Positions 17,201 to 63,125 of a stretch of 64,000 bases of DNA are shown in pieces (the stretch's first letter is position 1; the number at the start of each line of letters is the position of its first letter). Origin of the DNA: a bacterium (lineage in GTDB: Bacteria > Myxococcota_A > UBA9042). A model generated the notes under the pieces. It was given only the letters and a program-made list of their open reading frames with translations, searched no databases and was not told where the DNA came from. The position numbers and the translations under genes were made by a program. The stretch is from contig JAUIAC010000001.1 of NCBI GenBank assembly GCA_030425545.1, positions 3,132 through 67,131 of the forward strand, given 5' to 3'.

Positions 17201-20200
17201 CGTCGGTGCTGGCCTTGTTCGGCGCCAGGTTCTTGCGCCAGAGCACGGCGCCGGTCGCGCCCACACGGGCCAGCAGCCCGCGGCGCACGTCGCCGGCCAT
17301 CTTGCCGCTCTGCCCCGCGACGACGGTCTGGTTGGCGCCGGTGTGGTCCACCGCGTCGGCGACGTCGCCGGCGAGGCCAGGCAGCAGCTTGGCAGCCGAG
17401 AGGTGCCCAGAGGACGACAGCCGCATCCACGGCACGCGCGTCACGCCCTGGTCCACCGCGCTGCCGACGACCACCGCCCCCTTGTCCGGCATCAGCGCCG
17501 ACGCGCGGCCCTCGACACCGCTCCACTTGCCGTGCTCGCGCAGGGCCACGCTCTTGCCCGCCTTGTCGAGGCGTACGAAGAGCACCGCAGGCTTCCCCGC
17601 CACCGTGGTGGTCCCCGTCGCCAGGGTCCCCCCAGCGTCGAGCGGATGCACGGTCCACACCCGCACCGCGTCCGAGGGCGTCGTCGCCTTGTGGCTGAAC
17701 GACCACAGCGGCTTGCCCGACTTCCCCAGGGCCTGAACCCACGCGTAGGCCGCGCTGACCGCGCCCTGGTTGAGCACGTGGCGCGCGCCGCCGACCACCG
17801 CGCTCCCCCCGCTGCCGTCGGCCGCGTTCAGCTCGTAGGCCTCGCCCGTCTTGCCCTGGCTCCAGGTCCAGAGCCGCTTGTCCTTGCCCGGCTGGCAGCT
17901 GCCGTCCTTGCACAGGCTACCGATCGTGCAGCTGGCGCCGTCGTCACACGGGGCACCGTCCACGTCCCCCACGACCAGGCACTTGTACGCCGTCTGCCCT
18001 TCGGACTTGCACACAGCCTTCTCGCAGTGCTTGGTCACGATGGTGCACTTGATCGTCGAGCCCACCTTGCACACGCCCTTGCTGCACGTGTCGTTGACGG
18101 TGCAGCCGTCGTTGTCGGCGTTGCAGGCGGTGCCGTCTCCGAGCACGGTCGCAAAGTCGCACTGCCCGGTCTTCGGGTGGCACTTGTCCACGGTGCAGGA
18201 GTTGCCGTCGGCGCAGTTCTGCTGCTTGTGCACACAGCCGAGCTTCTTGTCGCAGAGGTCGATGGTGCAGGCGTCATTGTCGGCGCAGTCCGCCTTCACC
18301 GGGCCCACGCACGCGCCGCTGTCGCAGCTGTCCTGAGCGGTGCACGGGTTGTCGTCGTCGCAGGCCTTGCCCTTGGTCACGGGCTGCAGGCCGCACTTGC
18401 CCGACTTGGCGTTGCAGGCGTTGACGAGGCACTGGGTGTTGGCCGTCTGCGGGCAGTGCACCTTCGAGCTCGGGTTGGGCTTGCAGGCGTACTTGCCCGG
18501 CACGCTCTTGTCGCAATAGGGCACGCCGTTGCACAGGTCGCCGTCGTCTTGCGCGAGGCAGTCGCTGTCGCTCTGGCAGGTGCAGGTGAAGGTGCCACCG
18601 ACGCACTTGCCGTTGCCGCAGGTGTCGTTCGCGGTGCACTTGTCCCCGTCGTCGCACAAGGTCTTGTCCGCGAGCTTGGCCAGGTAGCAGGCCCCGACCT
18701 TCTTGTCGCAGGTGTTCTTGATGCAGGCGCTGTCGCCCGCCGTCGGGCACACCACCACCGACGCCGGGTTCGGCTTGCACACGTGCTTGCCTGGGGTCGA
18801 GGTGTCGCAGTAGGGCACGCCGTTGCACTTGTCGCCGTCGTCTTTGCTCAGGCAGTCGCTGTCGCTCTGGCACTCGCACACGTTCGTGCCGCTGCACTCG
18901 CCGCCCTTGCAGACGTCGCTGCTGGTGCACGCGTCGCCGTCGTCACACCCGGTCTGCGTCGCGAGCTCGGCCAGGAAACACGCGCCCGTCTTGGGGTCGC
19001 AGGTGTTCTTGATGCAGGCGCTGTCGTCGCCCTTGGGACACACCACCACCGACGCCGGGTTGGGCTTGCACACGGGAAGCGCGCCCGACGTGTCGCAGTA
19101 GGGGACGCCGTTGCACTTGTTGCCGTCGACGTCGACGCAGTCCGAGTCGGTCTTGCACGCGCAGGTGTAGGTCCCCGAGACGCAAGATCCGGCAGCGCAG
19201 AAGTCGCTCTTGGTGCACACGCTCTTGTCGTCACAGGCGGCGCCCTCGTAGGTCGCCGTGTCCATCTTGCACTGACCGGTGGCCTTGACGCAGACGTTCT
19301 TGCGGCACGCGTTGTCGCCCGCTGACGGGCAGGTGACCACGGTGGCCGGGTTCAGCTCGCACTTGCCGAGCAGCTTGTTGCAGAAGAGCGTGCCGTTGCA
19401 CTGGTCGCCGTCCTCTTCGCCCGCGCAGTCCTTGTCCGACTTGCAGTAGCAGGTGTAGGTGCCCGCGGCGCACTTGCCGCCCTTGCAGAGATCCCCCTTG
19501 GTGCAGGGGTCGCCGTCGTCGCACGGGGTCAGCGACTTGTCGGTGACCGGCACCAGGGTGCACGCCGCCTCCTTGGGGACCTGCTTGCCCGCCTTGGTCT
19601 CGTACAGCGTCTTGCAGGTGTTCTGCGCGCAGGCGGTGTCATTGGTGTCTGGGCACACCTTCACCGTGGCGGGGTTGACCTGGCACAGGCCGTTGACCTT
19701 GTTGCAGAAGAGCGTGCCGTTGCAGAGGTCGCCGTCGCCGTTCTTGGCCTCGCACTCCGCGTCCGACTTGCACACGCAGGTGTTGGTGCCGGGGACGCAC
19801 TTGCCGATGAAGCAGGCGTCGCCCGTGGTGCACTTGTCGCCGTCGTCACAGGCCGTGCCACCGGCGGTGGGCACCAGCTCGCACTGGCCGGTCTTGGGCT
19901 GGCAGGCCGCCTTGGCGCAGGCCGTGTCGTTGCCGTCGGGACAGCTGACCACGGTGGCCGGGTTGACCTTGCACTTGGGCGCGACCTTGCCGTCGCCGCC
20001 CTTGTGCTGGGTGTCGCAGTAGAGCGTGCCGTTGCAGAGGTTGTCGTCGTCCACCAGCGCGCAGTCCGCGTCGCTCGCACAGGTGCACACGTTGACCTTG
20101 GCCTCGCACACGCCGCCCTTGCAGGCCTCGTTCTTGGTGCAGGCGTCACCGTCGTCGCAGGGGGTGGCGTCGGGCTGAGTCTGAGTCGCGCAGCTGCCCG

Positions 20201-20762
20201 TCTTGGGGTTGCAGGTCTCGCTGGCGCAGGGGCCACCCTCGCCCTTGCAGGTGACCACGGTCGCCGGGTTGACGCGGCACGACCACGGGAACTGATCCTT
20301 GTCGCAGAAGAGGGTGCCATTGCAGAGGTTGCCGTCCTCCTTGGCGGTGCAGTCGGCGCTGGTGACACAGCCGCAGAAGCTGAGCGATCCAGGCGTGCAG
20401 ACCCCCGCCTGGCAGGTGGCGGAGACCGTGCACGGGTCGCCGTCGTCGCACAGGGTGCCCTTGGGGCGCGGCGTGGTCTCGCACGTGCCCGTGGCCGCGA
20501 CGCAGCGCTCGTAGGTGCACGGCGTGTCCTTGCTCGGGTCACAGTCGCAGCTGGCCACGTCGAGCTTCGCGCTGCTGTCGGTCCCCCCTCCCGTGTCGAG
20601 CGGAGCGCCCGTGTCGAGGGCCGCGCCGGTGTCGGTGGCGCCGACGACGTCTCCGAGCGCGGCGTCCGCCCCGCCGGTCGGCGCCTCGTCTTCACATCCG
20701 GGCTGGGTCGCCAACATCACCAACAGCCCCCAAAACGGGGCCAACTGCCGTACGCGAGTCAT
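14214..20762 (-). CDS. giant (about 2180 aa) secreted (lipo)protein with two classes of Cys-rich repeats and two Trp-rich non-repeat domains
   Basis: Probable start ATG at 20762 gives MTRVRQLAPFWGLLVMLATQPGC... (signal peptide). There are about 9 copies of an approximately 80 aa unit (...C-x-SD-DC-x5-DGNLCNGTLYCD...C-x-NPATVV-CP...). Two approximately 400 aa W/G-rich non-repeat regions look beta-propeller-like. C-terminal CDDxNxCTxDxC repeats are of the same class as the neighbouring giant gene. A roughly 230 aa non-repeat domain sits at the C-terminus. Confidence 0.8.
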   Translation of the reverse strand: MTRVRQLAPFWGLLVMLATQPGCEDEAPTGGADAALGDVVGATDTGAALDTGAPLDTGGGTDSSAKLDVASCDCDPSKDTPCTYERCVAATGTCETTPRPKGTLCDDGDPCTVSATCQAGVCTPGSLSFCGCVTSADCTAKEDGNLCNGTLFCDKDQFPWSCRVNPATVVTCKGEGGPCASETCNPKTGSCATQTQPDATPCDDGDACTKNEACKGGVCEAKVNVCTCASDADCALVDDDNLCNGTLYCDTQHKGGDGKVAPKCKVNPATVVSCPDGNDTACAKAACQPKTGQCELVPTAGGTACDDGDKCTTGDACFIGKCVPGTNTCVCKSDAECEAKNGDGDLCNGTLFCNKVNGLCQVNPATVKVCPDTNDTACAQNTCKTLYETKAGKQVPKEAACTLVPVTDKSLTPCDDGDPCTKGDLCKGGKCAAGTYTCYCKSDKDCAGEEDGDQCNGTLFCNKLLGKCELNPATVVTCPSAGDNACRKNVCVKATGQCKMDTATYEGAACDDKSVCTKSDFCAAGSCVSGTYTCACKTDSDCVDVDGNKCNGVPYCDTSGALPVCKPNPASVVVCPKGDDSACIKNTCDPKTGACFLAELATQTGCDDGDACTSSDVCKGGECSGTNVCECQSDSDCLSKDDGDKCNGVPYCDTSTPGKHVCKPNPASVVVCPTAGDSACIKNTCDKKVGACYLAKLADKTLCDDGDKCTANDTCGNGKCVGGTFTCTCQSDSDCLAQDDGDLCNGVPYCDKSVPGKYACKPNPSSKVHCPQTANTQCLVNACNAKSGKCGLQPVTKGKACDDDNPCTAQDSCDSGACVGPVKADCADNDACTIDLCDKKLGCVHKQQNCADGNSCTVDKCHPKTGQCDFATVLGDGTACNADNDGCTVNDTCSKGVCKVGSTIKCTIVTKHCEKAVCKSEGQTAYKCLVVGDVDGAPCDDGASCTIGSLCKDGSCQPGKDKRLWTWSQGKTGEAYELNAADGSGGSAVVGGARHVLNQGAVSAAYAWVQALGKSGKPLWSFSHKATTPSDAVRVWTVHPLDAGGTLATGTTTVAGKPAVLFVRLDKAGKSVALREHGKWSGVEGRASALMPDKGAVVVGSAVDQGVTRVPWMRLSSSGHLSAAKLLPGLAGDVADAVDHTGANQTVVAGQSGKMAGDVRRGLLARVGATGAVLWRKNLAPNKASTDARLRAVVAQPSARLTAAGHTTDGSGTHYWLLRTDLQGKVLWQRVSPGAAAIHGMYLHGSGQLMVSGSAPDGSGGLDAWAMLTDPIGNPVWQQNFTQIDGAGAGSKPSVVLRGVHAMDGGLLLAGTRTAALQRAFVSRMSPWGQQTCESAGACATIAAAGCDDSDPCTLDRCDPKSGKCLHTTLEGLVCDPKDGCAVQGVCAAGKCKADPNGELWSRLYPWETGTEAWRVHAGVGAIRGTSDGGSVVFGHQQASQYAKYPYNGSLATVRRLDHTGSLVWQRKLTSPDPHSFKGTNKWLLERKNGEIWAGYQQQTSANGYGRSSFIVRTDVNGTALSTLNWKQKVGSTEGGIQAIAEAADGSLGYAIRYRFFRRNTSYAVVASKDFPAVGGAAAWPSRMAAASDGRWVAVGSGGGRGFATLLAPDGTAQWVVSPPGLTGITLRAARVDSGNDVRAAGWTTSTTAKRRLVVVGFAGKSGALQSVVTTAELNAGATVLAATGPQDGLAFVAKWGAGVNHKVRLFLTQPGGQPLLSRDLDAGNVASTWALGAGDDGVLIGGWAIAQDGKRKTTVARTGPWGLAPCTAAGLCKGVDPSDCDDKNACTTDSCAPGAGCTHTARSCDDGNACTTDACDKVKGCTHAPVVCDDKRSCTHNLCNVTAGGGEKAGCTFPLKPVCNDGSACTTDTCEADSSCKHTKVDCDDKSACTVDTCDKSAGCKHKSVTCNDHQPCTLDTCNKVKGCVFTALADGAVCKDGEVCVPLGPGICGGGACKVGGKAYVGCTSLSPASSCVAAKDAAGGKLDTFVGWTWLDEDKDGKNPKREWCDMKAGGFKRLYTNGVTRATNSWGPGSVMSCSGGLGQAKMWNPPAISLKYGSGTKTVTLNGALDVPQAHTAVRVRFRYHITTPNSTYKNWASAKIHLNGTLMFNGGLGGLPVVTGSSNPKAAGTCSPALGNMHALLADYQVAHTGPSVALSVQSTGMASTIWYAWPIGAVEVWVK

Positions 20763-20931
20763 CGGGTTCTCCAGCGCGAGTGAGGGGTGCCAAACGGTAC
20801 AACATCCTGGCGCGCCGCGAACGATCTGAAGCGCAGCGAGGCCCATTCCACCCGCCGAACAAACTCTCCCCACGACCCCGCCCGGTGGGTTAGGCTGCGG
20901 CGCAGCCCAGCTCGATCCAGGAGACACACGC

Positions 20932-22749
20932 ATGCCATCGACCATCGTTCGACTCCGTGACGCCCTCCGCTCTCGCCCCCGTCATCTACCGATCCTCGTC
21001 GCGTCGCTCGTCGTGCTGGCGACCGCTGGCGCCTGCGGCACGGACGCCGACAGCGGCAGCGGAGCCGACGCGGCCACGGAGAGCGACGCCGCGACGGCCG
21101 GCGCCGACACCGTGATCGCGGGAGAGGACGCGACCTCAAAAGGCGAGGGCACGCCGACCTGGCACGCGACCATCGCGCCGATCATCCAGAGCCGCTGCAG
21201 TTCCTGCCACGTCGAGGGCGGCATCGCCCCCTTCCGCCTCGACCGGGCCGAAGACTGGGAGATCATGGGCAAGCCCGCGGTGTCGGCGATGGAGTCCGGC
21301 CGCATGCCGCCGTGGCCCGCAGACCCGACCTGCGGCTCGTTCGCGCATCGCGGCGACATGCCCAAGGCCGAGATTGCGCAGGTCTCGGCCTGGGTCAACG
21401 GAGGTCGGCCCCTCGGTGATCCGAAGGACGCGCCCAAGCCCAAGGCGACCGCGCCGGTGACCTTCAAGCCCACACACTCGCTGCCCATGCCGGTCGCCTT
21501 CACGCCACCCAAAGACAACCTGGACACGTACCGGTGCTTTCTGCTCGACCTCGACACGTCGAAGGACCGCTTCATCAAGGCGACGCAGGTGGTCCCGGGG
21601 AGCGGCAAGCTGGTGCACCACGTGCTCGTGTACGCCCTGGAGGGAGACCACGTGACCAAGGCCGAGAAGGCCGACAAGGCGGAAGCCGGGCCGGGCTACA
21701 CCTGCTTCGGTGGACCGCTGCCAAACGAGAAGGAGAGCAGCCTGCTCGGGTTCACCACCGGCTTCCCGAACCAGCTCGCCGCGTGGGTGCCCGGGCTGCA
21801 GCCGTCGATCTTGGGCGACGACTACGCCATTCGGGTGAAGAAGGGCAGCCGGGTCGTCATGCAGGTGCACTACAACGTCCCGGCGGGGCAGACCGAAGCC
21901 GACCAGACCAAGCTCGAGCTGGTCGTGACCGACACGCCGCCCAAGCGGGTGCTGATCACGCGGCCGCTGGTGATCCGAGACCTCAACATCCCCGCTGGCG
22001 ACAAGGCCGCGTCGCACAGCGCGACCTACCGCTACTACGGGGACAGCGAGGTGCGCATCCACTCCATGACCGCCCACATGCACCTGCTCGGCTCACGCTT
22101 CGAGTCCGAGGTGCGGCGCAAAGACGGGACCACGGAGTGCGCCCTGCGGATCCCGGAGTGGGACTTCGCCTGGCAGCAGGCCTACCGCCGACCGCACGAC
22201 GATCCGATCGTGTTGAAAGACGGCGACGGCATGATGCTGCGGTGTGTCTACGACAACTCCGTCGCCAACCAGCCGCGGGTGAACGGCAAGCAGGTGACAC
22301 CCAAGAACGTGACCTGGGGCGACGGCACGCTGGACGAGATGTGCCTGCTCTACCTGACCATGAGCGAGCCCTACGAGGTGGGTCTGGCGGCCGACGCGCC
22401 CGCGTGTCAGGGCATCAGCGCGTGTCAGCCTGCGTGCGATCCCAAGAGCCCGACCACCTGCATCTACGACTGCGACAAGACCGAGCCCGTGTGTGGCACG
22501 TGCGCCATTGGTCAGCTGATCTCGTGCGCCGGGCTGGGCTGCGCGGCGTCGATGCTGGGCGCGCAGGACTGCCTGACCAACTGCCTGATCGGCTCGCTGA
22601 TGCTCGACGCCAACCCCGCGTCGTGCTTGACCACGCAGTGCAAGAGCAAGTGGGAGAAGGTGCAGGCCTGCCTCGACCCCAAGATCGCCAAGGGCGACTG
22701 CGACAAGCACCTCAAGACCTGTGGCGTGGCTTTTGGCGCGGGAAAGTAG
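20932..22749 (+). CDS. lipoprotein with N-terminal Planctomycete-type cytochrome c (PSCyt1-like, CxxCH) domain fused to a copper type II ascorbate-dependent monooxygenase-like (PHM/DBH-like) domain and a Cys-rich C-terminal tail
   Basis: Signal peptide with ...LVVLATAGAC G. The segment IAPIIQSRCSSCHVEGGIAPFRLD carries a CxxCH heme motif in a PSCyt1-like context. Cu-site-like motifs are present: VHHVLVY (HH), AHMHLLG (HxH) and GTLDEMCLLY (DEMC Met ligand). The C-terminal approximately 120 aa has about 16 Cys. Confidence 0.65.
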   Translation: MPSTIVRLRDALRSRPRHLPILVASLVVLATAGACGTDADSGSGADAATESDAATAGADTVIAGEDATSKGEGTPTWHATIAPIIQSRCSSCHVEGGIAPFRLDRAEDWEIMGKPAVSAMESGRMPPWPADPTCGSFAHRGDMPKAEIAQVSAWVNGGRPLGDPKDAPKPKATAPVTFKPTHSLPMPVAFTPPKDNLDTYRCFLLDLDTSKDRFIKATQVVPGSGKLVHHVLVYALEGDHVTKAEKADKAEAGPGYTCFGGPLPNEKESSLLGFTTGFPNQLAAWVPGLQPSILGDDYAIRVKKGSRVVMQVHYNVPAGQTEADQTKLELVVTDTPPKRVLITRPLVIRDLNIPAGDKAASHSATYRYYGDSEVRIHSMTAHMHLLGSRFESEVRRKDGTTECALRIPEWDFAWQQAYRRPHDDPIVLKDGDGMMLRCVYDNSVANQPRVNGKQVTPKNVTWGDGTLDEMCLLYLTMSEPYEVGLAADAPACQGISACQPACDPKSPTTCIYDCDKTEPVCGTCAIGQLISCAGLGCAASMLGAQDCLTNCLIGSLMLDANPASCLTTQCKSKWEKVQACLDPKIAKGDCDKHLKTCGVAFGAGK

Positions 22750-40504: not shown

Positions 40505-40601
40505 TGGCGGAAGTGCAGGGGAATCGAACCCCCCTGAGACGCTCGTCACGCCTCACACCGGTTTTGAAGACCGGGGAACTCACCAGAGCCCAAGCACCTC
40601 C
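40505..40601 (-). tRNA. selC: tRNA-Sec (selenocysteine, anticodon UCA)
   Basis: Reverse complement of 40505-40601. 8-bp acceptor stem GGAGGUGC/GCACUUCC, 6-bp D-stem, anticodon loop CU-UCA-AA, long variable arm (about 22 nt), T-arm GGGGG-UUCGAUU-CCCCU, discriminator G and encoded CCA. The 8/5 acceptor/T architecture and UCA anticodon are diagnostic of bacterial tRNA-Sec. Total 97 nt. Confidence 0.85.
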
Positions 40602-45161: not shown

Positions 45162-45428
45162 TCGCTCGGTGAAGGTGTCCGCACGGACGCCGACGTGGGC
45201 GCTGGCCGTCCACACACTGACCGCGTGACTGATGCCACGCCGGCGCGACCCCGCCACCCTGGGGTCCCGTCGGCGTGGCTGTCGCGTACCTAGCCCGCTG
45301 CGCTGTCGGCCGACAGGTGCAGCCCGCTTGAGACCAAGCGCCCGGCCATCGGGCGTTGGCGAGGCCCCGCCCTCGCCGCCACGGAGCCCAGCATGACCTC
45401 CCCCCTTGCCAGCCGAGAGCGCCGGTTC

Positions 45429-46190
45429 ATGTCCATTGCGCGGTCCGCGCTCGTGGCGGCCACGCTGCTGCTCGGTGCCTGTGGCCCCACGTACCCGAAC
45501 TGCGACGGCGACAGCCACTGCAAGGACAAGGGCGAGTACTGCTTGGAGAAGAAGTGCGTCCAGTGCCGGCTGACGTCGCACTGCGCCAACGCGAGCACCG
45601 ACGCGTGTGTCGCCTGCGAGAAAGGGCAGTGCGTCCGCAAAGCGGGCTGCTGCACCAACAACCTCGACTGCCCCAGCGGCAAGAAGTGCAGCGCCAACGC
45701 CTGCGTGAACCAGTGCGCGAGCGACGCCGACTGTGTCGGCGGCAAGACCTGCAACGAGCAGGGCGCCTGCGTCAGCCCCGACGCGGCCGGCTGCAGCTCC
45801 GACGGAGACTGCGGTGGCTCGCTGAAGTGCAAAGAGGGCAAGTGCGTCAACAAGGACGGGGCCTGCGAGCTCATCCCGGTGAACTTCGCCTTCAACCGCG
45901 CCAACCTGAGCCGCTCGGCCCAGAGCTCGATCTCGTCGAACGCGCGTTGCCTCAAGGAGCGCAAGGTGACGAGCGTGACGGTGGAAGGACACTGCGACGA
46001 GCGCGGCACCGACGCCTACAACCTGGAGCTCGGCAACCGCCGCGCCCGCGCCGTGAAGCGCTACCTCCAGCGCGTGGCGCGCAAGCTGAAGATCCGCACC
46101 GTGTCGTACGGCAAGGCCCGTCCGGAGTGCAACGACTCGTCCGAGAGCTGCTGGTCGCGCAACCGCCGCGCTGAGTTCGTGGCGCGTTGA
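45429..46190 (+). CDS. OmpA/Pal-like peptidoglycan-associated lipoprotein with an N-terminal Cys-rich module
   Basis: MSIARSALVAATLLLGAC GPTY gives the lipobox (an alternative ATG lies at 45393). About 130 aa Cys-rich region paralogous to the preceding small lipoprotein. C-terminal OmpA domain ...VNFAFNRANLS...GHCDERGTDAYNLELGNRRARAVKRYL...SYGKARP...NRRAEFV. Confidence 0.8.
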   Translation: MSIARSALVAATLLLGACGPTYPNCDGDSHCKDKGEYCLEKKCVQCRLTSHCANASTDACVACEKGQCVRKAGCCTNNLDCPSGKKCSANACVNQCASDADCVGGKTCNEQGACVSPDAAGCSSDGDCGGSLKCKEGKCVNKDGACELIPVNFAFNRANLSRSAQSSISSNARCLKERKVTSVTVEGHCDERGTDAYNLELGNRRARAVKRYLQRVARKLKIRTVSYGKARPECNDSSESCWSRNRRAEFVAR

Positions 46191-47734
46191 GCCAGGTCGT
46201 GCCACGCGCGGCGCTGCTGCGCGCCATCGTCGTGACAGTCGGCGTCCTGACAGCTGGGTGCGCCACCAACAGTCGCGTCGCGCGGCTCGAGGCGCGCATC
46301 GTGCAGCTCGAGAAGGATCGGGCCGCGCTGAAGCTCGCCTACGCCCGCGATCAGAAGCGCATGACGCGGCTCCGCGACGAGATCGAGAGCAGCTCGAGCT
46401 TCCTCCGTCGCAACGGCGCGCAGATGACCTCGCGCCTCGACGACCTCGAAGACGCCGGCCGGCGGCAGAAGGGGGCCAACGAGGTCCTCGCCCACCGGCT
46501 GTCCACTGTGAGCCGCCAGAGCAAGGCCGACCACGCCGCGCTGCAGGTGACCGGCCGCAAGCTGGACCAGCTGGTGGCGGACCTGCGAGACCGGGCGGGG
46601 ATCTCAATTCTGGCGCTGCCGCGCGACCTGCCTGAGCACGCAGACGACTGGGTGAAGCTGGCCGAAGACCGGTTCGGGTGGGGCGAGGTGCGCGTCGCTG
46701 ACGCCATCGCGAAGGAGTGCCGCAAGCGTTTTCAGGGGACGAAGCAGGCCGGTCGCTGCGGGCTGATCCAGGGGCGCATCGCCTACGAGGAGCACCGCTT
46801 CGGCGACGCCGTGAAGACCTTTCGCGCGGTGCACGACGAGCTCGACGGCAAGCGCCTTCCCGAGGTCGCGACGGCGTTGATGGGGATCGCGTCGACCTTC
46901 GAGGCACAGGGCAAGTGCAAGCAGGCCCGCGACGTCCTCGGCTACGTGAAGCAGCTGATGAAGAAGGGCGCGCAGGCGAGCGCTGCGCAGGCTGCGCTCA
47001 AGTCACAGGGTACGCGCTGCAAGGCCGGGACCGTGCGGCTGCCGGCGCGCACGTCGGGGAAGCTGAAGGCGGCTGCAGCGGCGAAGAAGGCCGCTGAGGA
47101 GCAGGCCCGCCGGGACGCCGAAGCCAAGGCCCAGGCGGAGGCAGAGGCCAAGCGCAAGGCCGAAGAAGAGGCCATTCGCAAGGCACGCGCCGCGCGGGAC
47201 GCCAAGGCCAAGGCAGAGGCAGAGGCAGAGGCGAAGGAGGCCGCCGAGCGCAAGGCAAAGGAGGACGCGGCCCGCGCGGCCAAGGATGCCGCTGCCAAGG
47301 ACGCCACTGCCAAGGACGCCACTGCCAAGGACGCCACTGCCAAGGACGCCACTGCCAAGGACGCCACTGCCAAGGACGCCACTGCCAAGGACGCCGGCAA
47401 GCCGGGCGCCACCGACGCGTCGGCCGCGCCTGCCAGCAAGGCGCCGGCGAAGGCCAGCGACGACGGCGCGGCCAAGCCAGCGAGCGACGGGGCCGACAGC
47501 ACGAAGGCGGCGAGCGATGCCAAGGCGGGGGCCGACGCCAAGGCGGAGGCAGACGCCCCGGCTGGGGCGGAGACCAAAGGGGGCGCCAAGGCCGACGCAA
47601 CGCCGGCCAAGGGCGGCCAGCCGGACGCCAAGGGGGCCGCCAAGCCCGCGCCGAAGGCCAAGGCCGCGCCGGCCGCCAAGTCCGCGCCGCCAGCGGCCAA
47701 GTCAGCCCCCAAGGCCGCCGACAAGGCGGGCTGA
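46187..47734 (+). CDS. CpoB/YbgF-like coiled-coil plus TPR lipoprotein with Ala/Lys/Glu/Asp-rich repetitive C-terminal half
   Basis: TTG 46187 overlaps the upstream stop. ...VVTVGVLTAGC ATN gives the lipobox. N-terminal coiled coil (RLEARIVQLEKDRAALK...), central TPR-like helices, then an approximately 220 aa low-complexity tail including (KDATA)6. Its position directly after a Pal-like gene mirrors tol-pal-cpoB. Confidence 0.5.
   Translation: MSQVVPRAALLRAIVVTVGVLTAGCATNSRVARLEARIVQLEKDRAALKLAYARDQKRMTRLRDEIESSSSFLRRNGAQMTSRLDDLEDAGRRQKGANEVLAHRLSTVSRQSKADHAALQVTGRKLDQLVADLRDRAGISILALPRDLPEHADDWVKLAEDRFGWGEVRVADAIAKECRKRFQGTKQAGRCGLIQGRIAYEEHRFGDAVKTFRAVHDELDGKRLPEVATALMGIASTFEAQGKCKQARDVLGYVKQLMKKGAQASAAQAALKSQGTRCKAGTVRLPARTSGKLKAAAAAKKAAEEQARRDAEAKAQAEAEAKRKAEEEAIRKARAARDAKAKAEAEAEAKEAAERKAKEDAARAAKDAAAKDATAKDATAKDATAKDATAKDATAKDATAKDAGKPGATDASAAPASKAPAKASDDGAAKPASDGADSTKAASDAKAGADAKAEADAPAGAETKGGAKADATPAKGGQPDAKGAAKPAPKAKAAPAAKSAPPAAKSAPKAADKAG
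47290..47395. repeat. 6-7 tandem copies of 15-bp unit GCCAAGGACGCCACT (encodes KDATA repeats)
   Basis: Direct repeats visible on the + strand from 47290 to 47395 inside the CpoB-like gene. Confidence 0.85.
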
Positions 47735-49692: not shown

Positions 49693-51141
49693 CTACCGAC
49701 CGCGACGGCGACCACGACGGCCCCTGCGGCGCTTCTTCTTCGGCGGCGGGGCGGCGGCCTTCTTCAGCAGGTCGGCGTACTTGTCTTCCAACGCCTGGGA
49801 CGCGAAACGGGTCGAGAGCGCGAGGCTGTAGCGCTCCTTGCAGAGCTTGGTGTCCCCAGCCTTGCAGGCGGTGTCGCCGTCGAGCTCCAACACCCCCGCG
49901 ATGGCCTTCAACGCGGCGTCGGCGTCCGCCCGATAGACGGACTCCTTGGGGATCAGCTGGTGCTGTCGAATCGCCTCGCCGTAGGTCTTGGCGGCGAAGG
50001 CGGCCTCGGCTTTGACGAAGCGCGCGCCCGCCTTCTTCTCCGCCGTGATCCGGTTGAGGGCCTTCGTCGGCTTGCTCTCGGTGGGATCGAGTCGACGCGC
50101 CTCTTTGTAGGCTCGCTCCGCCTTGTCCCACTGCCGACCGTTCATGGCCTCGCGCCCCTTCTCCAGCAGCTCGTCGTACTCCTTGAGGCGCTTGGCGCGC
50201 TTGGCCTCGAGCGCCGCGGCCTTGGCCTTCATGTCTGCCGCGCCCTCGCCCTCGTCGCGCTGGGCCTCGCTGGCCGAGATGGCAGGCGAGATCCACCTGT
50301 CGTAGGCGAAGCCGACGATGACGACGAGCCCCGTGATCGCCAGCACAATGACAGCCACGGCGGCGACCTGGGGCAGCATCGAGGAGCGCTCGGGTGGCTG
50401 TTGCTGCTCGTAGTAGTCGGGAAAGGCGTCCCCATAGGAGCTGATGGGCGCGGCCGGCCGGAACCCGGAGGCGCTCGCCGCATGCGGCGACGGTGCGGGC
50501 TCCTGCCACGGCTCAGGCACGGGCGCCTCGGTCTCTCCCTCCACCTGAAAGACAAAGCCCACCGTGCCAAAGCGCACCCGGTCGCCGTGGCGCAGGTCCT
50601 GCACGTCGATGCGGCGCTCGTTGACGTAGGTGCCGTTGGAGCTCCGCAGGTCCTCGACCACCACGCGGCCGTCGTCGTCCTGGGTGATCTTGGTGTGGAT
50701 ACGCGACACGGAGGGGTCGTTGATGACCAGCGTACAGTCTTTGCCGCGGCCGATCAGCGTCGTCGCCCGGTTCAGCTCGAAGGCCTCCGCGCCCCCGTGG
50801 ACGGGCACCAGGTGGGCGTAGGTGCTCGATCCCATCGGCCGCGCAAAGGCAGCGCCCTCGATGTGCAGGTAGAAGTCGCCGATGCGCACCTGTGCGCTGC
50901 GCGGCAGCTCGGTGACGTTGTAGATCCGCTTGCCGTTGAGCCAGATGCCATTGGCGGCGTTGAGATCCTCGATGTAGCAGCGCCCCTCGACGGTGAAGAG
51001 GCGGGCGTGCCGGCGAGAGACGTTGTCCGCCGCGAGGACGATGTCGCAGGACTGGCTGCGGCCGATGACGAACTCACCATCTTCAAACGAGTACTCGTCG
51101 ACGATCGCGCCGTACTTGTCCTCGATGATGAGCGTGAACAT
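49693..51141 (-). CDS. membrane-anchored protein with two N-terminal FHA domains and a C-terminal TPR-like domain
   Basis: Start MFTLIIEDKYG (ATG 51141). FHA 1 ...FVIGRSQSCDIVLAADNVSRRHARL...EDLNAANGIWLNG.... FHA 2 ...TLIGRGKDCTLVINDPSVSRIHTKI...DLRSSNGTYVNERRI.... One TM segment (AAVAVIVLAITGLVVIVGFAY). C-terminal helical domain and polybasic tail KKKRRRGRRGRRRGR. Confidence 0.75.
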   Translation of the reverse strand: MFTLIIEDKYGAIVDEYSFEDGEFVIGRSQSCDIVLAADNVSRRHARLFTVEGRCYIEDLNAANGIWLNGKRIYNVTELPRSAQVRIGDFYLHIEGAAFARPMGSSTYAHLVPVHGGAEAFELNRATTLIGRGKDCTLVINDPSVSRIHTKITQDDDGRVVVEDLRSSNGTYVNERRIDVQDLRHGDRVRFGTVGFVFQVEGETEAPVPEPWQEPAPSPHAASASGFRPAAPISSYGDAFPDYYEQQQPPERSSMLPQVAAVAVIVLAITGLVVIVGFAYDRWISPAISASEAQRDEGEGAADMKAKAAALEAKRAKRLKEYDELLEKGREAMNGRQWDKAERAYKEARRLDPTESKPTKALNRITAEKKAGARFVKAEAAFAAKTYGEAIRQHQLIPKESVYRADADAALKAIAGVLELDGDTACKAGDTKLCKERYSLALSTRFASQALEDKYADLLKKAAAPPPKKKRRRGRRGRRRGR

Positions 51142-51148
51142 GGGCTTC

Positions 51149-53218
51149 CTAGGCCTTGAGGTCGACCGCACGTAGGTCAGCGCCCTCGAGCGTCACCTCC
51201 ACGATGCGATCCAGGACTGCGCCGCCGTCCACGATGGAGAAGACACCGAGCACGTCGAGGGCCGCGACGGTGCGGGAGGCCGCGACCGCCATGGGCACAC
51301 CAGCGTAGCGGACCGCGTGCGCGTTGAGCGCGCGCTGCATGGCCTCCTCAGCGCTGCGGGCGTGGAGGAAGCCGAGCCAGGGCGCGATGCCGTCGCAGGC
51401 GTGGTCGATGAGACCGATGAGCTGCGCCGCGCCGCACTCCCCCAAGAGGATCCGGTCCGGCCGCAGCATGCGGGCCACGTGCAGCGCCTCGTCGCCCACC
51501 GCCGTGTCGAGGCGGATCACCTGCGGCTGCGACAGGTGCAGCCGCACACCTTGCTCCGTGACGACGATGCGCTCGGTGTCGGGGACCTCGCGCGCCAGCG
51601 CGTTGAGCACGGTGCGGCGGCCCGACCCCGCGGCGCCGACCAGCGCGATGCTCCGGCCCGCGAGCATGAGGTCTCGGAGCTGACCCGCGGCGTCCTCTGT
51701 GACCACGCCACGCCCCACCAGGTCGTCGAGCGAGGGCGCGTCACCCCGGGGCTTTCGAATCAACACCACCGGGCCGTTGGGGCACAGCGGGGGCCACGCC
51801 ACCCGCACCGTGGTGCCGTCCGCCAGGGTTCCGTCGACCCAGTGTCCAGCGCTGTCCGGCGCGCCGCTGGCTCGCACCAGGCGCTCCGCCGCCGACGAGA
51901 GCGCGGCCTGCCCGCTGAACCGGACCTCCGTCTCCTGGCGCTCGCTGTCCCGGTGGACCCAGATCTGCTCAGGGCCGTTGACCTCGATGGTCTCGACCGC
52001 GGCGTCGTCGAGCAGCGTCTCGAGCGGGCCGAGCCCGACCAGCTCGTAGATCAGATCGCGCTTGAGCCGGTCGAGGTCGAGCGTGTCCGGCAGGGAGGCG
52101 TGCTGACCGTCGACAAAGGCCACGACGCGCGCCTCCATCTCTGCCCACTCGGAGTCGCTCAGCTGTGCAGCGTCCCCGGTGAACGACCCGGCCAGCTCTT
52201 CACTGGCCTGCGTGTGGAGCAGGGCGAGCGCGTCGTAGTGCCCGCTAGGAGGGACAAAGGCGTCGCCCTCGGCGGTGCTCATCACCGGCATCGGGGCGGC
52301 GACGTCTGGCATGGACAGGTCGAGAGACAGATCCGGCGCCTGAACGCCCGAGACCGCGGCAGCGGCGGCGTCGAGGGCCGCGCCGAGCCCGTCGACCGGT
52401 CCAGTCATGCGATCGTCCACCGCCTCCATGGCCGCGACAGGGTCTGCCGCGACGACCGCCGCGTCGCCCACCATCGGAGCGGCCGCCTCACGGCGGGCCG
52501 CGATCTCGGCCATGGCGTCGCTCGCGGCGTCACCGAGCTGCGACAGGGTCGACTCGTCGAGCGCGTCCAAGGCCTCAAGCGGGGCGTCGGCCTCGCCGTC
52601 CAGGCCTGGACCGCCCTGGTCGGCCACAGGGGCGGCGAAGGGGTCGTCCGCACCGAAGGCGCCGCTGGCGAGGGCGTCGTCTGCGCTAGCGGCGTCGAAG
52701 GCCTCCGCGGCGAAGGCGTCGTCTCCAAAGGCGTCGTCGCCGAACGCGTCGGCGGAGAATTCGTCGGCGCCGAAGCCCGACGCGTCGAAGTCCGCGCCAC
52801 CGTCGGCCGACTGCGCCGGCTGGCTTGACGAGGAGACCGCGCGGCCACTCTCAGACGTCGCTGCGTCGAGGCCCAGGTCGTCGCCCAGCGGCGCCGCGTC
52901 GTCTGCTGCAGTGCCGTCGTTGGGCTGACCCAGGTCGAAGAACTGCATCACAAAGTCGCCCAGATAGGCCTTGTCTTCCGACCCCACCTCGACCGGCGTC
53001 GTGATGCGATGCCCGTTGACGTAGGTGCCGTTGGTGCTGCCGAGATCTTCGACCACGAACCGGGGGCCGTGCACGCGCACCAGGGCGTGACGCTTCGAGA
53101 TGTTCTGCTTGGGCAAGATGACGTCGTTGCCCTTGACCCGACCGATCATGATCTCGGGCTTGTCGAAGTGGAAGGTGTACACCTGCCCACTCTTCTCACG
53201 GATGGTGACGCTGAACAT
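51149..53218 (-). CDS. FHA domain protein fused to a CpaF/TadA (VirB11-like) secretion-ATPase fold with degenerate catalytic motifs
   Basis: N-terminal FHA (...IMIGRVKGNDVILPKQNISKRHALV...DLGSTNGTYVNGHRI...). Long acidic linker (about 200 aa, D/A/E-rich). C-terminal approximately 330 aa aligns by eye to CpaF. The Walker A position reads GAAGSGRRT instead of GSGKTT. The Walker B/Glu position reads IVVTEQGVRL instead of IEDAAEL. The conserved RMRPDRIIVGE block is retained (MLRPDRILLGE). Confidence 0.7.
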   Translation of the reverse strand: MFSVTIREKSGQVYTFHFDKPEIMIGRVKGNDVILPKQNISKRHALVRVHGPRFVVEDLGSTNGTYVNGHRITTPVEVGSEDKAYLGDFVMQFFDLGQPNDGTAADDAAPLGDDLGLDAATSESGRAVSSSSQPAQSADGGADFDASGFGADEFSADAFGDDAFGDDAFAAEAFDAASADDALASGAFGADDPFAAPVADQGGPGLDGEADAPLEALDALDESTLSQLGDAASDAMAEIAARREAAAPMVGDAAVVAADPVAAMEAVDDRMTGPVDGLGAALDAAAAAVSGVQAPDLSLDLSMPDVAAPMPVMSTAEGDAFVPPSGHYDALALLHTQASEELAGSFTGDAAQLSDSEWAEMEARVVAFVDGQHASLPDTLDLDRLKRDLIYELVGLGPLETLLDDAAVETIEVNGPEQIWVHRDSERQETEVRFSGQAALSSAAERLVRASGAPDSAGHWVDGTLADGTTVRVAWPPLCPNGPVVLIRKPRGDAPSLDDLVGRGVVTEDAAGQLRDLMLAGRSIALVGAAGSGRRTVLNALAREVPDTERIVVTEQGVRLHLSQPQVIRLDTAVGDEALHVARMLRPDRILLGECGAAQLIGLIDHACDGIAPWLGFLHARSAEEAMQRALNAHAVRYAGVPMAVAASRTVAALDVLGVFSIVDGGAVLDRIVEVTLEGADLRAVDLKA

Positions 53219-62941: not shown

Positions 62942-63014
62942 GCCCAGATAGCTCAGTCGGTAGAGCAGGGGATTGAAAATCCCCGTGTCGGCGGTTCGAT
63001 TCCGTCTCTGGGCA
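62942..63014 (+). tRNA. tRNA-Phe (anticodon GAA)
   Basis: GCCCAGA acceptor pairs with TCTGGGC. D-arm GCTCAGTCGGTAGAGC. Anticodon stem GGGGA/TCCCC with loop TT-GAA-AA. T-loop GGTTCGATTCC. Discriminator A. 73 nt, CCA not fully encoded. Confidence 0.9.
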
Positions 63015-63049
63015 CCTCCCAGCCTCGCGCTGGGTGGTTCGACATCAAA

Positions 63050-63125
<76 letters not shown>

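What the first reader, a model, noticed from the sequence alone, without database searches (positions are those of the whole stretch)
49693..53218. FHA operon: FHA-fused CpaF/VirB11-like ATPase with substituted Walker motifs (likely pseudo-ATPase) plus a double-FHA membrane protein
The upstream gene joins an FHA phosphothreonine-binding domain, through an approximately 200 aa poly-acidic linker, to a CpaF/TadA-type secretion-ATPase fold. The Walker A lysine is replaced (GSGRRT rather than GSGKTT). The Walker B/catalytic Asp-Glu block is replaced (TEQGVRL rather than IEDAAEL). The structural RPDRIxxGE block is kept. That pattern suggests a scaffold or regulatory pseudo-enzyme rather than a motor. 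It is separated by only 7 nt from a gene encoding two FHA domains, a TM anchor and a TPR-like domain ending in a polybasic tail. Together they look like a Ser/Thr-phosphorylation-responsive module that may regulate a Tad/T2SS/T4P-like machine encoded elsewhere.
Basis: partly seen in the sequence, partly recalled or inferred. Interest (0 to 1): 0.7.

Follow-up and report, generated by a model that had tools for sequence, protein, structure and literature searches.

The report
Dead CpaF-like ATPase with FHA partner
Two co-oriented genes in an uncultured myxobacterium encode a pilus-motor look-alike that has lost the residues needed to burn ATP and a membrane protein with two phosphothreonine-binding domains; the pair is kept under strong selection in many relatives and looks like a silenced copy of the KilF–KilD pair of the myxobacterial prey-killing pilus, probably working as a phosphorylation-dependent scaffold rather than a motor.

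Summary
Gene A (51149-53218, minus strand, 689 aa) is an FHA domain, a 240-aa acidic disordered linker and a complete CpaF/TadA fold. Gene B (49693-51141, minus strand, 482 aa) starts 7 nt after A and has two FHA domains, one TM helix, a TPR-like solenoid and a polybasic tail.

Mapped onto Caulobacter CpaF, A has K287→R, T288→R and E312→R. Both N-domain arginine fingers became Thr, the first His-box His is lost, and the pore loop is 10 residues shorter. The Walker B Glu is kept.

This is not decay:
- About 30 close orthologues share T288→R, E312→R and the loss of the arginine fingers.
- dN/dS of the dead domain is 0.01-0.13.
- The A+B pair recurs in about 45 loci of uncultured Myxococcota.

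The hypervariable linker carries a conserved R-x-T-G-x-Φ motif in 28 of 31 orthologues, a candidate phospho-Thr docking site.

Canonical FHA-CpaF genes in Kil/Tad-like loci (M. xanthus kilF) are followed by an FHA+TPR gene (kilD) of the same build as B. The pair is therefore best read as a catalytically silenced kilF-kilD paralogue, sited among housekeeping genes with no Tad genes or kinase in the window.

I found no description of such a pair in the literature I searched. Its target is inferred, not shown.

The parts
51149..53218 (-). Gene A: FHA - acidic IDR - CpaF-like pseudo-ATPase (689 aa, stop TAG 51149-51151)
   Evidence: ORF; Pfam FHA + T2SSE; CpaF best PDB hit; orthologues
52925..53218 (-). 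A: N-terminal FHA domain (residues 1-98) with intact GR / SKRH / STNG phosphothreonine-binding signature
   Evidence: Pfam; invariant between window and P0001; dN/dS 0.00-0.03 between close orthologues
52202..52924 (-). A: disordered acidic linker (residues 99-339; net charge -44; Ala/Asp/Gly-rich, DAFGDD repeats)
   Evidence: tandem repeats; dN/dS 0.15-0.29
52394..52411 (-). A: conserved short linear motif R270-M-T272-G-P-V275 in the linker, a candidate phospho-Thr / FHA docking site
   Evidence: R-x-T-[GY]-x-hydrophobic present in 28 of 31 orthologous linkers; 0.03 expected from shuffles
51152..52201 (-). A: CpaF-fold region (three-helix bundle, N-terminal domain, C-terminal ATPase-like domain; residues 340-689)
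   Evidence: AF2 pLDDT 90.5; Foldseek 8rjf_A E=1e-31, TMq 0.83; dN/dS 0.01-0.13
51611..51637 (-). A: degenerate Walker A G528-AAGSG-R534-R535-T536 (CpaF K287->R, T288->R)
51533..51574 (-). A: degenerate Asp box E549-RIVVTEQGVR559-LHL (CpaF D309->Q, E312->R)
   Evidence: role of E312 from PMC12019362
51437..51463 (-). A: retained Walker B block R586-PDRILLG-E594
51142..51148 (-). 7-nt spacer GAAGCCC between A stop and B start (SD-like AGGAAG overlaps the stop)
49693..51141 (-). Gene B: 2xFHA - TM - TPR-like - polybasic tail (482 aa; stop 49693-49695)
   Evidence: P0240 is 100% identical over 482 aa
50857..51141 (-). B: FHA1 (residues about 1-95), the most conserved part of the module
50542..50832 (-). 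B: FHA2 (residues about 104-200)
50302..50379 (-). B: single transmembrane helix (about residues 255-280)
   Evidence: hydropathy 2.96 over 259-277; present in all 42 orthologues
49756..50274 (-). B: TPR-like seven-helix solenoid (about residues 290-462) with conserved Cys426/Cys434 pair; probably periplasmic
49696..49755 (-). B: polybasic tail PPPKKKRRRGRRGRRRGR; lineage-specific
   Evidence: long tail only in window, L001-L003, L007, L018

Best explanation
Genes A and B form a conserved two-gene module of uncultured Myxococcota.

Origin (inferred from architecture, gene order and profile scores): the module derives from the same stock as the KilF-KilD pair of the myxobacterial Tad-like 'Kil' pilus. 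KilF is an FHA-fused CpaF motor ATPase. KilD is an FHA/TPR accessory protein encoded directly downstream.

State of A (shown): A keeps the whole CpaF fold. Its nucleotide/Mg2+ site has been rebuilt:
- Walker Lys to Arg.
- Mg2+-binding Thr to Arg.
- Mg2+-stabilising Asp-box Glu to Arg.
- Both N-domain arginine fingers to Thr.
It therefore cannot hydrolyse ATP by the canonical mechanism, yet it is maintained by strong purifying selection. It is a pseudo-ATPase, not a motor and not a decaying gene.

Likely mechanism (inferred):
1. B is anchored in the inner membrane, with two phosphothreonine-competent FHA domains in the cytoplasm and a disulfide-stapled TPR-like domain in the periplasm.
2. A Ser/Thr kinase encoded elsewhere phosphorylates the conserved Thr272 (R-M-T-G-P-V) in A's disordered linker and/or other partners.
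3. The three FHA domains of A and B read these marks.
4. The CpaF-shaped, presumably oligomeric, body of A is thereby recruited to or released from the membrane.
5. There it acts as a scaffold or as a non-motor competitor or adaptor at the docking site of a Tad/Kil-type platform or another envelope complex.

Shown: anatomy, loss of catalytic residues, selection, conservation of the pair, and the parallel with kilF-kilD loci. Inferred: phosphorylation of Thr272, the A-B contact, oligomeric state, and the identity of the regulated machine.
For: Domain content and fold:
- Pfam and PDB hits.
- AF2 model of residues 330-689 with pLDDT 90.5.
- Top structural matches are CpaF 8rjf/8rkd/9e24, then FlaI, archaeal GspE and VirB11.

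Catalytic residues:
- The CpaF cryo-EM paper PMC12019362 assigns K287 (gamma-phosphate; K287A is inactive), T288 and E312 (Mg2+), E357 (Walker B), and R217/R223/R347 (arginine fingers).
- The window protein has R, R, R, E, T, T, M at these positions. Its pore loop is 13 rather than 23 residues.
- In about 26 close orthologous loci, T288->R and E312->R are invariant and R217/R223 are always T/S/A. K287 is R in 18 loci and K in 8.

Selection:
- dN/dS is 0.01-0.13 for the dead domain, 0.00-0.03 for the FHA domain and 0.15-0.29 for the linker.

Pairing:
- A B-like gene lies 4-60 nt downstream of the A-like gene in about 45 loci.
- The same synteny is seen for P0001 and P0077, L076 and L078.
- The 7-nt spacer is confirmed.

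FHA competence:
- The GR / SxxH / NG signatures are invariant.

Linker motif:
- R-x-T-G-x-hydrophobic is present in 28 of 31 linkers, against 0.03 expected.

B topology:
- A TM helix is present in all orthologues.
- The Cys pair is conserved.
- The C-terminal domain is a TPR-like solenoid.

Kil parallel:
- M. xanthus kilF is FHA + ATPase. The co-transcribed kilD is FHA + TPR, is required for killing, and is recruited to the machine (PMC8460266 text and supplementary file 18; PMC12075869).
- Loci with Walker-intact FHA-CpaF (L073/L074, L075, L034) show secretin, then FHA-T2SSE, then a 2xFHA+TM+TPR gene.
- B aligns collinearly over both FHA domains with the L073 protein (29% identity, E=8e-23).
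- Pseudo-ATPase domains score 18-90 bits better against an HMM of FHA-fused intact CpaFs than against FHA-less CpaFs.
Against: - No Tad/Kil component (secretin, prepilin peptidase, TadB/C, pilins) and no Ser/Thr kinase or phosphatase lies in the 64-kb window. None lies next to the pair in related loci, whose neighbours are housekeeping genes: thiSGE, mnmG, pal, polysaccharide genes, def, fab. The link to a pilus-like machine therefore rests on homology only.
- I could not test whether the genomes that carry the pair also carry a canonical Kil/Tad system.
- Eight orthologues keep the Walker lysine, and the window protein keeps the Walker B Glu and the P-loop glycines. Nucleotide binding, or even some residual or non-canonical hydrolysis, is not excluded.
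- B's C-terminal region shows no significant sequence similarity to the KilD-like proteins beyond being TPR-like.
- M. xanthus KilD is described as cytoplasmic, whereas B has a clear TM helix.
- The HMM test uses sets that were both retrieved by similarity to this protein.
- The linker motif regex was written after seeing the sequences.
Confidence: 0.6

Rival explanations
1. Same pseudo-ATPase and FHA module, but its client is not a Tad/Kil pilus. It is instead a general envelope or cell-cycle process, such as Tol-Pal/CpoB, polysaccharide export or cell division. B would work like other FHA-TM proteins (FipA/FhaB, GltG, SctD-type), and A would be a co-opted scaffold.
For: - The pair is embedded in a conserved housekeeping neighbourhood. 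thiSGE and the Wzx/Wzy/GT4 genes are on one side. mnmG, a CpoB/HC2-like gene and pal are on the other.
- thiSGE-A-B adjacency persists in very distant genomes.
- No Tad genes are nearby in any locus.
- NCBIfam finds partial FHA-level similarity of B to FhaB/FipA and GltG.
Against: - The neighbours differ between distant groups: def/ribD/fab in Polyangiaceae-type loci, UDP-glucose dehydrogenase in others. No client is consistently linked.
- mnmG is convergent, so it is not co-transcribed.
- The only experimentally studied pair with this architecture and order is kilF-kilD.
Confidence: 0.25
2. A is a ligand sensor rather than an inert scaffold. The P-loop glycines are retained, and the rebuilt, arginine-rich, Mg2+-free pocket binds ATP/ADP without turnover, or binds another anionic ligand (a cyclic or linear nucleotide second messenger, polyphosphate). 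Occupancy would switch the conformation or oligomeric state of the CpaF-like ring.
For: - GxxGxG is kept, with [RK]-R-T after it. T288->R and E312->R are invariant rather than random, and the Walker B acid is mostly kept.
- Strong purifying selection acts on the whole domain.
- From general knowledge of P-loop NTPases (not tested here), Lys->Arg Walker A mutants often still bind nucleotide.
Against: - No ligand can be inferred from sequence.
- Loss of both N-domain arginine fingers and of the Mg2+ ligands removes much of the triphosphate-binding shell described for CpaF.
- More distant members lose the P-loop altogether while the pair persists. Ligand binding therefore cannot be essential to the family as a whole.
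Confidence: 0.3
3. A is still a working ATPase motor that uses non-canonical residues (Arg for Lys, arginines replacing Mg2+ ligands). It would power a cryptic Tad-like machine.
For: - The full CpaF fold is retained, with the Walker B Glu and the second His-box His.
- Eight orthologues retain the Walker Lys.
Against: - CpaF K287A is inactive.
- The Mg2+ ligands T288 and E312 are both replaced by Arg in every close orthologue. The arginine fingers R217 and R223 are lost and the pore loop is shortened.
- Related groups progress to complete loss of all motifs.
- The TIGR03819 score is 135 against a cut-off of 373.
- No platform, pilin or secretin genes are nearby.
Confidence: 0.07
4. A is a decaying pseudogene or a chance degenerate copy without function.
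For: Many catalytic residues are lost. The gene is annotated only as hypothetical, CpaF or FHA protein in public records.
Against: - The reading frame is intact in more than 50 loci.
- dN/dS is 0.01-0.13.
- The replacements are family-specific and invariant.
- The partner gene and the linker motif are conserved.
- The fold is confidently predicted.
Confidence: 0.02

Closest known systems
KilF-KilD of the Myxococcus xanthus Kil (Tad-like) prey-killing pilus (MXAN_3107-3108; Seef et al. 2021, PMC8460266; PMC12075869)
   Same: - The gene order and architectures match: an FHA-linker-CpaF-type protein followed directly by an FHA + TPR protein.
- Both occur in Myxococcota.
- Metagenomic KilF-like loci with intact motifs carry a 2xFHA+TM+TPR gene downstream that aligns collinearly with B over both FHA domains.
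   Different: - A lacks the Walker Lys, both Mg2+ ligands and the arginine fingers.
- The pair is not next to a secretin or prepilin peptidase, nor to any kil gene.
- B is shorter (482 aa against about 700) and has no significant similarity to the KilD-like proteins in the C-terminal region.
- M. xanthus KilD is described as cytoplasmic.
- I had no M. xanthus sequences, so the comparison is with metagenomic KilF/KilD-like loci and the published domain table.
CpaF/TadA, class III architecture (FHA-IDR-3HB-NTD-CAD) as defined in PMC12019362
   Same: - The domain order is the same, including a long disordered linker.
- CpaF is the closest solved structure.
   Different: - Class III CpaFs are presented there as orthologues of the motor ATPase, while A has a rebuilt, non-catalytic site.
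- The TIGR03819 score is far below the cut-off.
- There is no Tad locus.
FlaH of the archaellum motor (a RecA/KaiC-like protein that binds but does not hydrolyse ATP and sits with the FlaI ATPase); recalled from knowledge, not tested here
   Same: The concept is the same: a non-hydrolysing P-loop protein associated with a type-IV-filament motor as a scaffold or regulator.
   Different: FlaH belongs to a different fold family (KaiC/RecA, not PilT/VirB11). It has no FHA domains and is encoded inside the archaellum operon.
FHA-TM proteins of secretion and motility machines: SctD/YscD/PrgH (T3SS), TagH/Fha (T6SS), GltG (gliding), FipA/FhaB (mycobacterial division)
   Same: All have cytoplasmic FHA domain(s) followed by a single TM helix and a periplasmic domain. 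B gives sub-threshold hits to these families through its FHA domains.
   Different: - B has two canonical pThr-competent FHA domains.
- B's periplasmic part is a TPR-like solenoid, not the ring-building motifs of SctD.
- All NCBIfam scores are far below the cut-offs except the FhaB/FipA model. That model is reached marginally (125.9 against 125) only because two FHA domains are summed.

Membership tests
PilT/VirB11-like secretion ATPase superfamily (Pfam T2SSE PF00437) | Two-domain fold (N-terminal PAS-like domain plus RecA-like C-terminal ATPase domain) | tested here: met
   Pfam 56.4 bits against a cut-off of 24.9; AF2 pLDDT 90.5; Foldseek CpaF E=1e-31, TMq 0.83
PilT/VirB11-like secretion ATPase superfamily (Pfam T2SSE PF00437) | Walker A GxxGxGK[ST] | tested here: not met
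   The motif is GAAGSGRRT: K287->R and T288->R. T288->R is invariant in close orthologues.
PilT/VirB11-like secretion ATPase superfamily (Pfam T2SSE PF00437) | Asp box with Mg2+-stabilising Glu (CpaF E308-D309...E312) | tested here: not met
   The motif is TEQGVRL: D309->Q and E312->R. E312->R is invariant in close orthologues.
PilT/VirB11-like secretion ATPase superfamily (Pfam T2SSE PF00437) | Walker B hhhhGE (CpaF E357) | tested here: met
   RILLGE594 is present in the window protein. The position is E, D or A among orthologues.
PilT/VirB11-like secretion ATPase superfamily (Pfam T2SSE PF00437) | His box (TGHxG...LH) | tested here: inconclusive
   The first His is replaced (DGIAPW) and the second His is kept (FLHA).
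PilT/VirB11-like secretion ATPase superfamily (Pfam T2SSE PF00437) | Arginine fingers contacting the triphosphate (CpaF R217, R223, R347) | tested here: not met
   The positions are T, T and M in the window protein. R217 and R223 are T/S/A in all close orthologues. R347 is mostly R or K elsewhere.
PilT/VirB11-like secretion ATPase superfamily (Pfam T2SSE PF00437) | ATP hydrolysis and hexamer formation | not testable with these tools
   Needs purified protein. No multimer modelling was available.
CpaF/TadA family (NCBIfam TIGR03819) | Score above the curated cut-off | tested here: not met
   135.1 bits against a cut-off of 373.15
CpaF/TadA family (NCBIfam TIGR03819) | Encoded within a tad/cpa locus (pilin, prepilin peptidase, secretin, TadB/C, TadZ) | tested here: not met
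   None found in the 64-kb window or in about 45 related loci
KilF-KilD-type pair (FHA-CpaF followed by FHA/TPR protein) | FHA-linker-CpaF-fold gene immediately followed by a co-oriented FHA + TPR gene | tested here: met
   Compared with the published table and with loci L073, L075 and L034.
KilF-KilD-type pair (FHA-CpaF followed by FHA/TPR protein) | Active motor ATPase; adjacency to kilC secretin and kilA peptidase; role in prey killing | tested here: not met
   Catalytic motifs are lost and no secretin or peptidase is nearby. The role in prey killing is not testable here.
FHA domain (PF00498), all three copies | pThr-binding signature: Gly-Arg (beta3-4 loop), Ser-x-x-His (beta4-5 loop), Asn-Gly (beta6-7 loop) | tested here: met
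   A has G26-R27, S41-K-R-H44 and N63-G64. B FHA1 has GR, SRRH and NG. B FHA2 has GRG, SRIH and SSNG. These are invariant or nearly invariant in the alignments.
SctD/YscD T3SS inner-membrane ring protein (PF16697 hit) | Periplasmic ring-building motifs after the TM helix; T3SS gene context | tested here: not met
   The periplasmic part is an all-helical TPR-like solenoid. TIGR02500 scores 29 against a cut-off of 86. No T3SS genes are in the window.

The most novel reading that the evidence does not exclude
A and its relatives would be the first recognised pseudo-enzyme lineage of the PilT/VirB11 secretion-ATPase superfamily. It is a clade-wide, core-genome 'dead motor' of Myxococcota. Its former Mg-ATP site was converted into an arginine-lined pocket, for a new anionic ligand or for none. 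Together with a bitopic double-FHA/TPR partner it would form a phosphothreonine-gated transmembrane signalling hub. That hub would operate independently of any Tad/Kil pilus, for example coupling periplasmic or envelope status to cytoplasmic Ser/Thr-kinase networks.
Probability: 0.3. Interest if true: 0.75.

Novelty: new variant of a known kind. Interest (0 to 1): 0.55.

Why it matters
- Secretion and pilus ATPases of the PilT/VirB11 family are treated as motors. A conserved, strongly selected member that has given up catalysis but kept the fold would show that this scaffold can be recycled for signalling or assembly control, as pseudokinases are in eukaryotes.
- The finding gives the Kil/Tad field a concrete candidate regulator with a built-in, testable phospho-switch: Thr272 in a conserved R-x-T-G-x-Φ motif, read by three intact FHA domains.
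- It warns annotators that 'CpaF family protein' or 'T2SS/T4P/T4SS ATPase' labels in Myxococcota MAGs cover a large set of FHA-fused proteins with graded loss of ATPase motifs.
- The value is limited for now. All carriers found are uncultured, and the regulated process is unknown.

Tried and rejected
- Searching the 5.8-billion protein set with A's C-domain gave only one close relative (P0001), because canonical CpaFs saturated the word prefilter. The family became visible only through the genome scan and the exhaustive profile search.
- Searching with B's C-terminal half found one fragment only, because its low-complexity Lys/Ala/Glu words defeat the prefilter. The full-length query worked.
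- Exact look-ups of the window proteins in the contig index found nothing, so the source record remains unknown.
- Cluster look-ups gave no informative names or organisms.
- Conserved-neighbour analysis was intended to reveal kinases, phosphatases or Tad genes. It returned only housekeeping genes: thiG, Wzx/Wzy, GT4, mnmG, pal, def, ribD, fabF/G/D. I treated this as phylogenetic synteny, not functional linkage.
- The promoter and terminator consensus scan found nothing.
- Rfam found only tRNAs.
- The afdb50 fold library was unavailable.
- Literature searches for pseudo-ATPase or degenerate Walker motifs in this family returned no description of such proteins.
- I considered a direct electrostatic contact between A's acidic linker and B's polybasic tail, whose charges are anticorrelated (r=-0.78). 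I set it aside because the TM helix and the Cys pair place B's tail in the periplasm, and because the tail is lineage-specific.
- I rejected pseudogene decay on the dN/dS evidence.

Full report
**What is in the sequence**

The window is about 70% G+C throughout. At the stated coordinates there are two co-oriented minus-strand ORFs.

Gene A (51149-53218, 689 aa):
- It starts at an ATG preceded by GGAGG.
- Pfam finds an FHA domain at residues 24-83 (E=1.6e-17) and a T2SSE secretion-ATPase domain at 394-631 (E=2.7e-15).
- NCBIfam's best model is TadA/CpaF-type TIGR03819, but at 135 bits against a curated cut-off of 373.
- Between the two domains lies a linker of about 240 residues. It is 26% Ala, 15% Asp and 10% Gly, with net charge -44.

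Gene B:
- It begins at ATG 51141, 7 nt (GAAGCCC) after A's TAG, with an AGGAAG ribosome-binding-like site overlapping the stop.
- This start gives a 482-aa product identical to a database protein, P0240.
- It has two FHA domains (combined E=7e-40) and weak TPR hits.
- It has one strong hydrophobic helix at residues 259-277 and a tail with +13 charge in its last 30 residues.

**Which catalytic residues are lost**

The closest solved relative is Caulobacter CpaF (E about 1e-32). The cryo-EM study of CpaF (PMC12019362, read) assigns these roles:
- K287 contacts the gamma-phosphate, and K287A abolishes activity.
- T288 and the Asp-box E312 hold Mg2+.
- E357 is the Walker B glutamate.
- R217, R223 and R347 are arginine fingers.

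I aligned the CpaF segment printed with the window protein and its relatives. The window protein has R534 for K287, R535 for T288, R559 for E312, Q556 for D309, T for R217, T for R223 and M for R347. It keeps E594 for E357. The first His-box histidine is gone (TGHDG became DGIAP) and the second is kept. The pore loop is 13 residues instead of 23.

The degenerate 'TEQGVRL' block is the Asp box. The retained 'RPDRILLGE' block is Walker B, not a purely structural element.

An AlphaFold2 model of residues 330-689, built on an alignment of 62 sequences, is confident (mean pLDDT 90.5). Its best structural matches are CpaF 8rjf_A (E=1e-31, TM 0.83), then FlaI, archaeal GspE and VirB11. The fold is intact and the chemistry is not.

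**A family, not an accident**

A pattern scan of one genome per GTDB species with the conserved N-terminal FHA peptides returned 70 loci. Nearly all come from uncultured Myxococcota assemblies (Myxococcales, Polyangia, Bradymonadales). Of these, 56 encode an FHA plus CpaF-like protein.

The motif tables show graded states:
- **Closest group** (about 26 loci, 43-63% identical in the C-domain). All share T288->R, E312->R and loss of R217/R223. K287 is Arg in 18 loci and Lys in 8. The consensus is G[RK]RT ... E[DQ]GxR[LM]xL ... DG[LIF][PA]PW.
- **Second small group.** This group is more eroded.
- **Third group.** It has GSGRT[ST] and VENSAM.
- **Polyangiaceae-type group.** No recognisable motif is left.
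- **L034.** This one locus is fully canonical.

An exhaustive profile search of 1.84 billion representative proteins found 1,494 proteins at E<1e-30. About 15 cluster representatives belong to the window's subfamily. Beyond them lies a continuum of FHA-fused CpaF-like proteins, many with altered Walker A motifs and some intact.

Nei-Gojobori estimates between moderately diverged orthologue pairs:

| Region | dN/dS |
|---|---|
| FHA domain | 0.00-0.03 |
| Linker | 0.15-0.29 |
| Degenerate ATPase-like domain | 0.01-0.13 |

The dead domain is thus as constrained as a working enzyme. This excludes pseudogene decay and makes the invariant arginine substitutions look like a rebuilt site rather than random loss. 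Public records call these proteins only 'hypothetical', 'CpaF' or 'T2SS/T4P/T4SS ATPase'.

**The partner and the linker motif**

A B-like gene follows the A-like gene, usually within 4-60 nt, in about 45 loci, including the distant third group. B is better conserved than A: 81% against 63% identity to the nearest relative.

Features of B:
- All B orthologues have the single TM helix.
- Two cysteines at B positions 426 and 434, on consecutive helices of the C-terminal domain, are conserved in 35 and 38 of 42 sequences.
- The C-terminal domain (residues 280-482) models confidently as seven helices (pLDDT 91.4).

Three observations together suggest an N-in/C-out protein with a disulfide-stapled periplasmic TPR-like domain: the TM helix, the positive N-terminal flank in the distant group, and the Cys pair. 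This is inferred, not shown.

The long polybasic tail occurs only in the window's nearest relatives.

All three FHA domains keep the Gly-Arg, Ser-x-x-His and Asn-Gly residues that define phosphothreonine binding.

Within A's otherwise hypervariable linker there is one conserved island. In the window it is R270-M-T272-G-P-V275. The pattern R-x-T-[GY]-x-hydrophobic is present in 28 of 31 orthologous linkers, against 0.03 expected from shuffled linkers. The pattern was written after inspection. A Thr with a hydrophobic residue at +3 is the classical kind of FHA ligand, which is established knowledge of FHA specificity. Thr272 is therefore a specific candidate phospho-switch.

**Context**

The window is ordinary core chromosome:
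- a TonB-dependent receptor, lgt, an M18 aminopeptidase and an OPT transporter;
- the ATP synthase operon and ABC transporters;
- pal and a CpoB/HC2-like gene, with mnmG convergent with B;
- thiG-thiE upstream of A on the same strand;
- a GT4/Wzx/Wzy polysaccharide cluster.

There is no Tad/Kil component and no Ser/Thr kinase or phosphatase.

The same neighbourhood surrounds the orthologues. The order thiS-thiG-thiE, then A, then B even persists in two distant genomes. In those genomes the A homologue is so eroded that Pfam barely detects T2SSE or does not detect it at all. In other groups the neighbours are def, ribD and fab genes. I read this as inherited synteny of a long-resident gene pair, not as functional linkage.

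**Comparison with what is known**

FHA-fused CpaFs are known. The CpaF structural paper defines a 'class III' FHA-IDR-3HB-NTD-CAD architecture. In M. xanthus the Kil (Tad-like) prey-killing pilus is driven by KilF, an FHA-fused CpaF. Directly downstream, and probably co-transcribed, is kilD. It encodes an FHA + TPR protein that is required for killing and is recruited to the contact site before the pilus forms.

I looked at metagenomic loci whose FHA-CpaF has intact motifs (P0114, P0119, L034). They show a secretin gene, then the FHA-T2SSE gene, then a gene for a 2xFHA + one hydrophobic helix + TPR protein. B aligns collinearly with the L073 protein over both FHA domains (29% identity, E=8e-23). 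It shows no significant similarity in the C-terminal part.

The pseudo-ATPase domains also score 18-90 bits higher against an HMM of FHA-fused intact CpaF-like proteins than against FHA-less CpaFs. Both sets were retrieved by similarity to this protein, so this is weak support.

The most economical reading is that A+B is a paralogue of a kilF-kilD-type pair whose ATPase was silenced and which became detached from the pilus gene cluster. Full-text searches found no paper describing a pseudo-ATPase of this superfamily or a degenerate KilF paralogue. The searched library is incomplete, so this is absence of evidence only.

**Mechanism and confidence**

Shown:
- the domain anatomy;
- loss of the canonical hydrolytic apparatus;
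- retention of the fold;
- strong selection;
- the conserved pairing;
- the conserved linker Thr motif;
- intact FHA signatures.

Inferred:
- A is a non-hydrolysing, probably oligomeric, CpaF-shaped scaffold.
- A kinase encoded elsewhere phosphorylates Thr272 and/or partner proteins.
- The three FHA domains of A and B read these marks to tether A to B at the inner membrane, or to release it.
- B's periplasmic TPR-like domain connects the module to an envelope partner.

The preferred client is a Kil/Tad-type platform, because of ancestry. Here A could act as a placeholder or competitor for the real motor. An unrelated envelope client is a serious alternative, and a ligand-sensing role for the arginine-lined pocket is not excluded. 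I put about 0.6 on the core statement (a silenced KilF/KilD-type pair acting as a phospho-dependent scaffold or regulator). I put only about one in three on the specific claim that it controls a Tad/Kil machine.

**Verdict**

It is a new variant of a known kind, not a categorically new system. Its interest lies in three things. It is a clade-wide 'dead motor' of the PilT/VirB11 family with a specifically remodelled active site. It offers a precise, testable phospho-switch. And it shows that many 'CpaF' annotations in Myxococcota are not motors. The main weaknesses are that every carrier is uncultured and that the regulated process is unknown.

Noticed in passing
window 47279-47395 (within ORF 46187-47734, + strand): A near-perfect 15-bp tandem repeat with 7.8 copies (GCCAAGGACGCCACT, encoding AKDAT repeats) lies inside a Lys/Ala-rich CpoB/HC2-like gene next to pal. 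Read in another frame, the same repeat produces the spurious 'PLPRT' N-terminal extension of the mnmG/gidA ORF in the mechanical ORF list.
   Followed up: partly
window 40509-40601 (- strand): There is a selenocysteine tRNA (Rfam tRNA-Sec, 76.9 bits), so the organism probably makes selenoproteins. Two ordinary tRNAs lie at 62942-63122.
   Followed up: no
window 14214-20981 (- strand) and 8188-12072 (+ strand): There is a 2255-aa ORF with Dictyostelium-type Cys-rich (Dicty_CTDC) repeats and a 1294-aa ORF with no Pfam match at all. Both have coding-like GC3.
   Followed up: no
L076 8211-11344; L078 6044-9503: The gene order thiS-thiG-thiE, then FHA-pseudoATPase, then 2xFHA protein is kept in two very distant genomes (65% G+C; GCA_963852235.1). 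There the ATPase-like domain is so degenerate that Pfam T2SSE is weak or undetected. L078 also has a Pkinase+PEGA gene about 5 kb downstream.
   Followed up: partly
L054-L064 (Polyangiaceae-type loci): Here the FHA-pseudoATPase has lost every ATPase motif and has no B-type partner. It is flanked upstream by a 540-aa calcineurin-like phosphoesterase (Metallophos) gene and downstream by def, ribD, fabF, fabG and fabD.
   Followed up: partly
gene A linker (52202-52924) versus gene B tail (49696-49755), and orthologues: The net negative charge of A's linker and the positive charge of B's last 30 residues are anticorrelated across 29 orthologue pairs (Pearson r=-0.78, not corrected for phylogeny). 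B's tail is predicted to be periplasmic and A cytoplasmic, so this remains unexplained.
   Followed up: partly
proteins P0077-P0226 (profile search): Among the 150 best FHA-CpaF-like cluster representatives, most have some departure from the canonical Walker A, Asp-box or His-box motifs (for example GSGRTT, GAGVTT, loss of TGH). Graded loss of ATPase motifs therefore seems common in FHA-fused CpaF homologues, well beyond this subfamily.
   Followed up: partly
window 45393-46190 (+ strand): The Pal/OmpA-family protein carries an unusually long Cys-rich N-terminal region (repeated C-x-x-x-C-type modules) before its OmpA domain.
   Followed up: no
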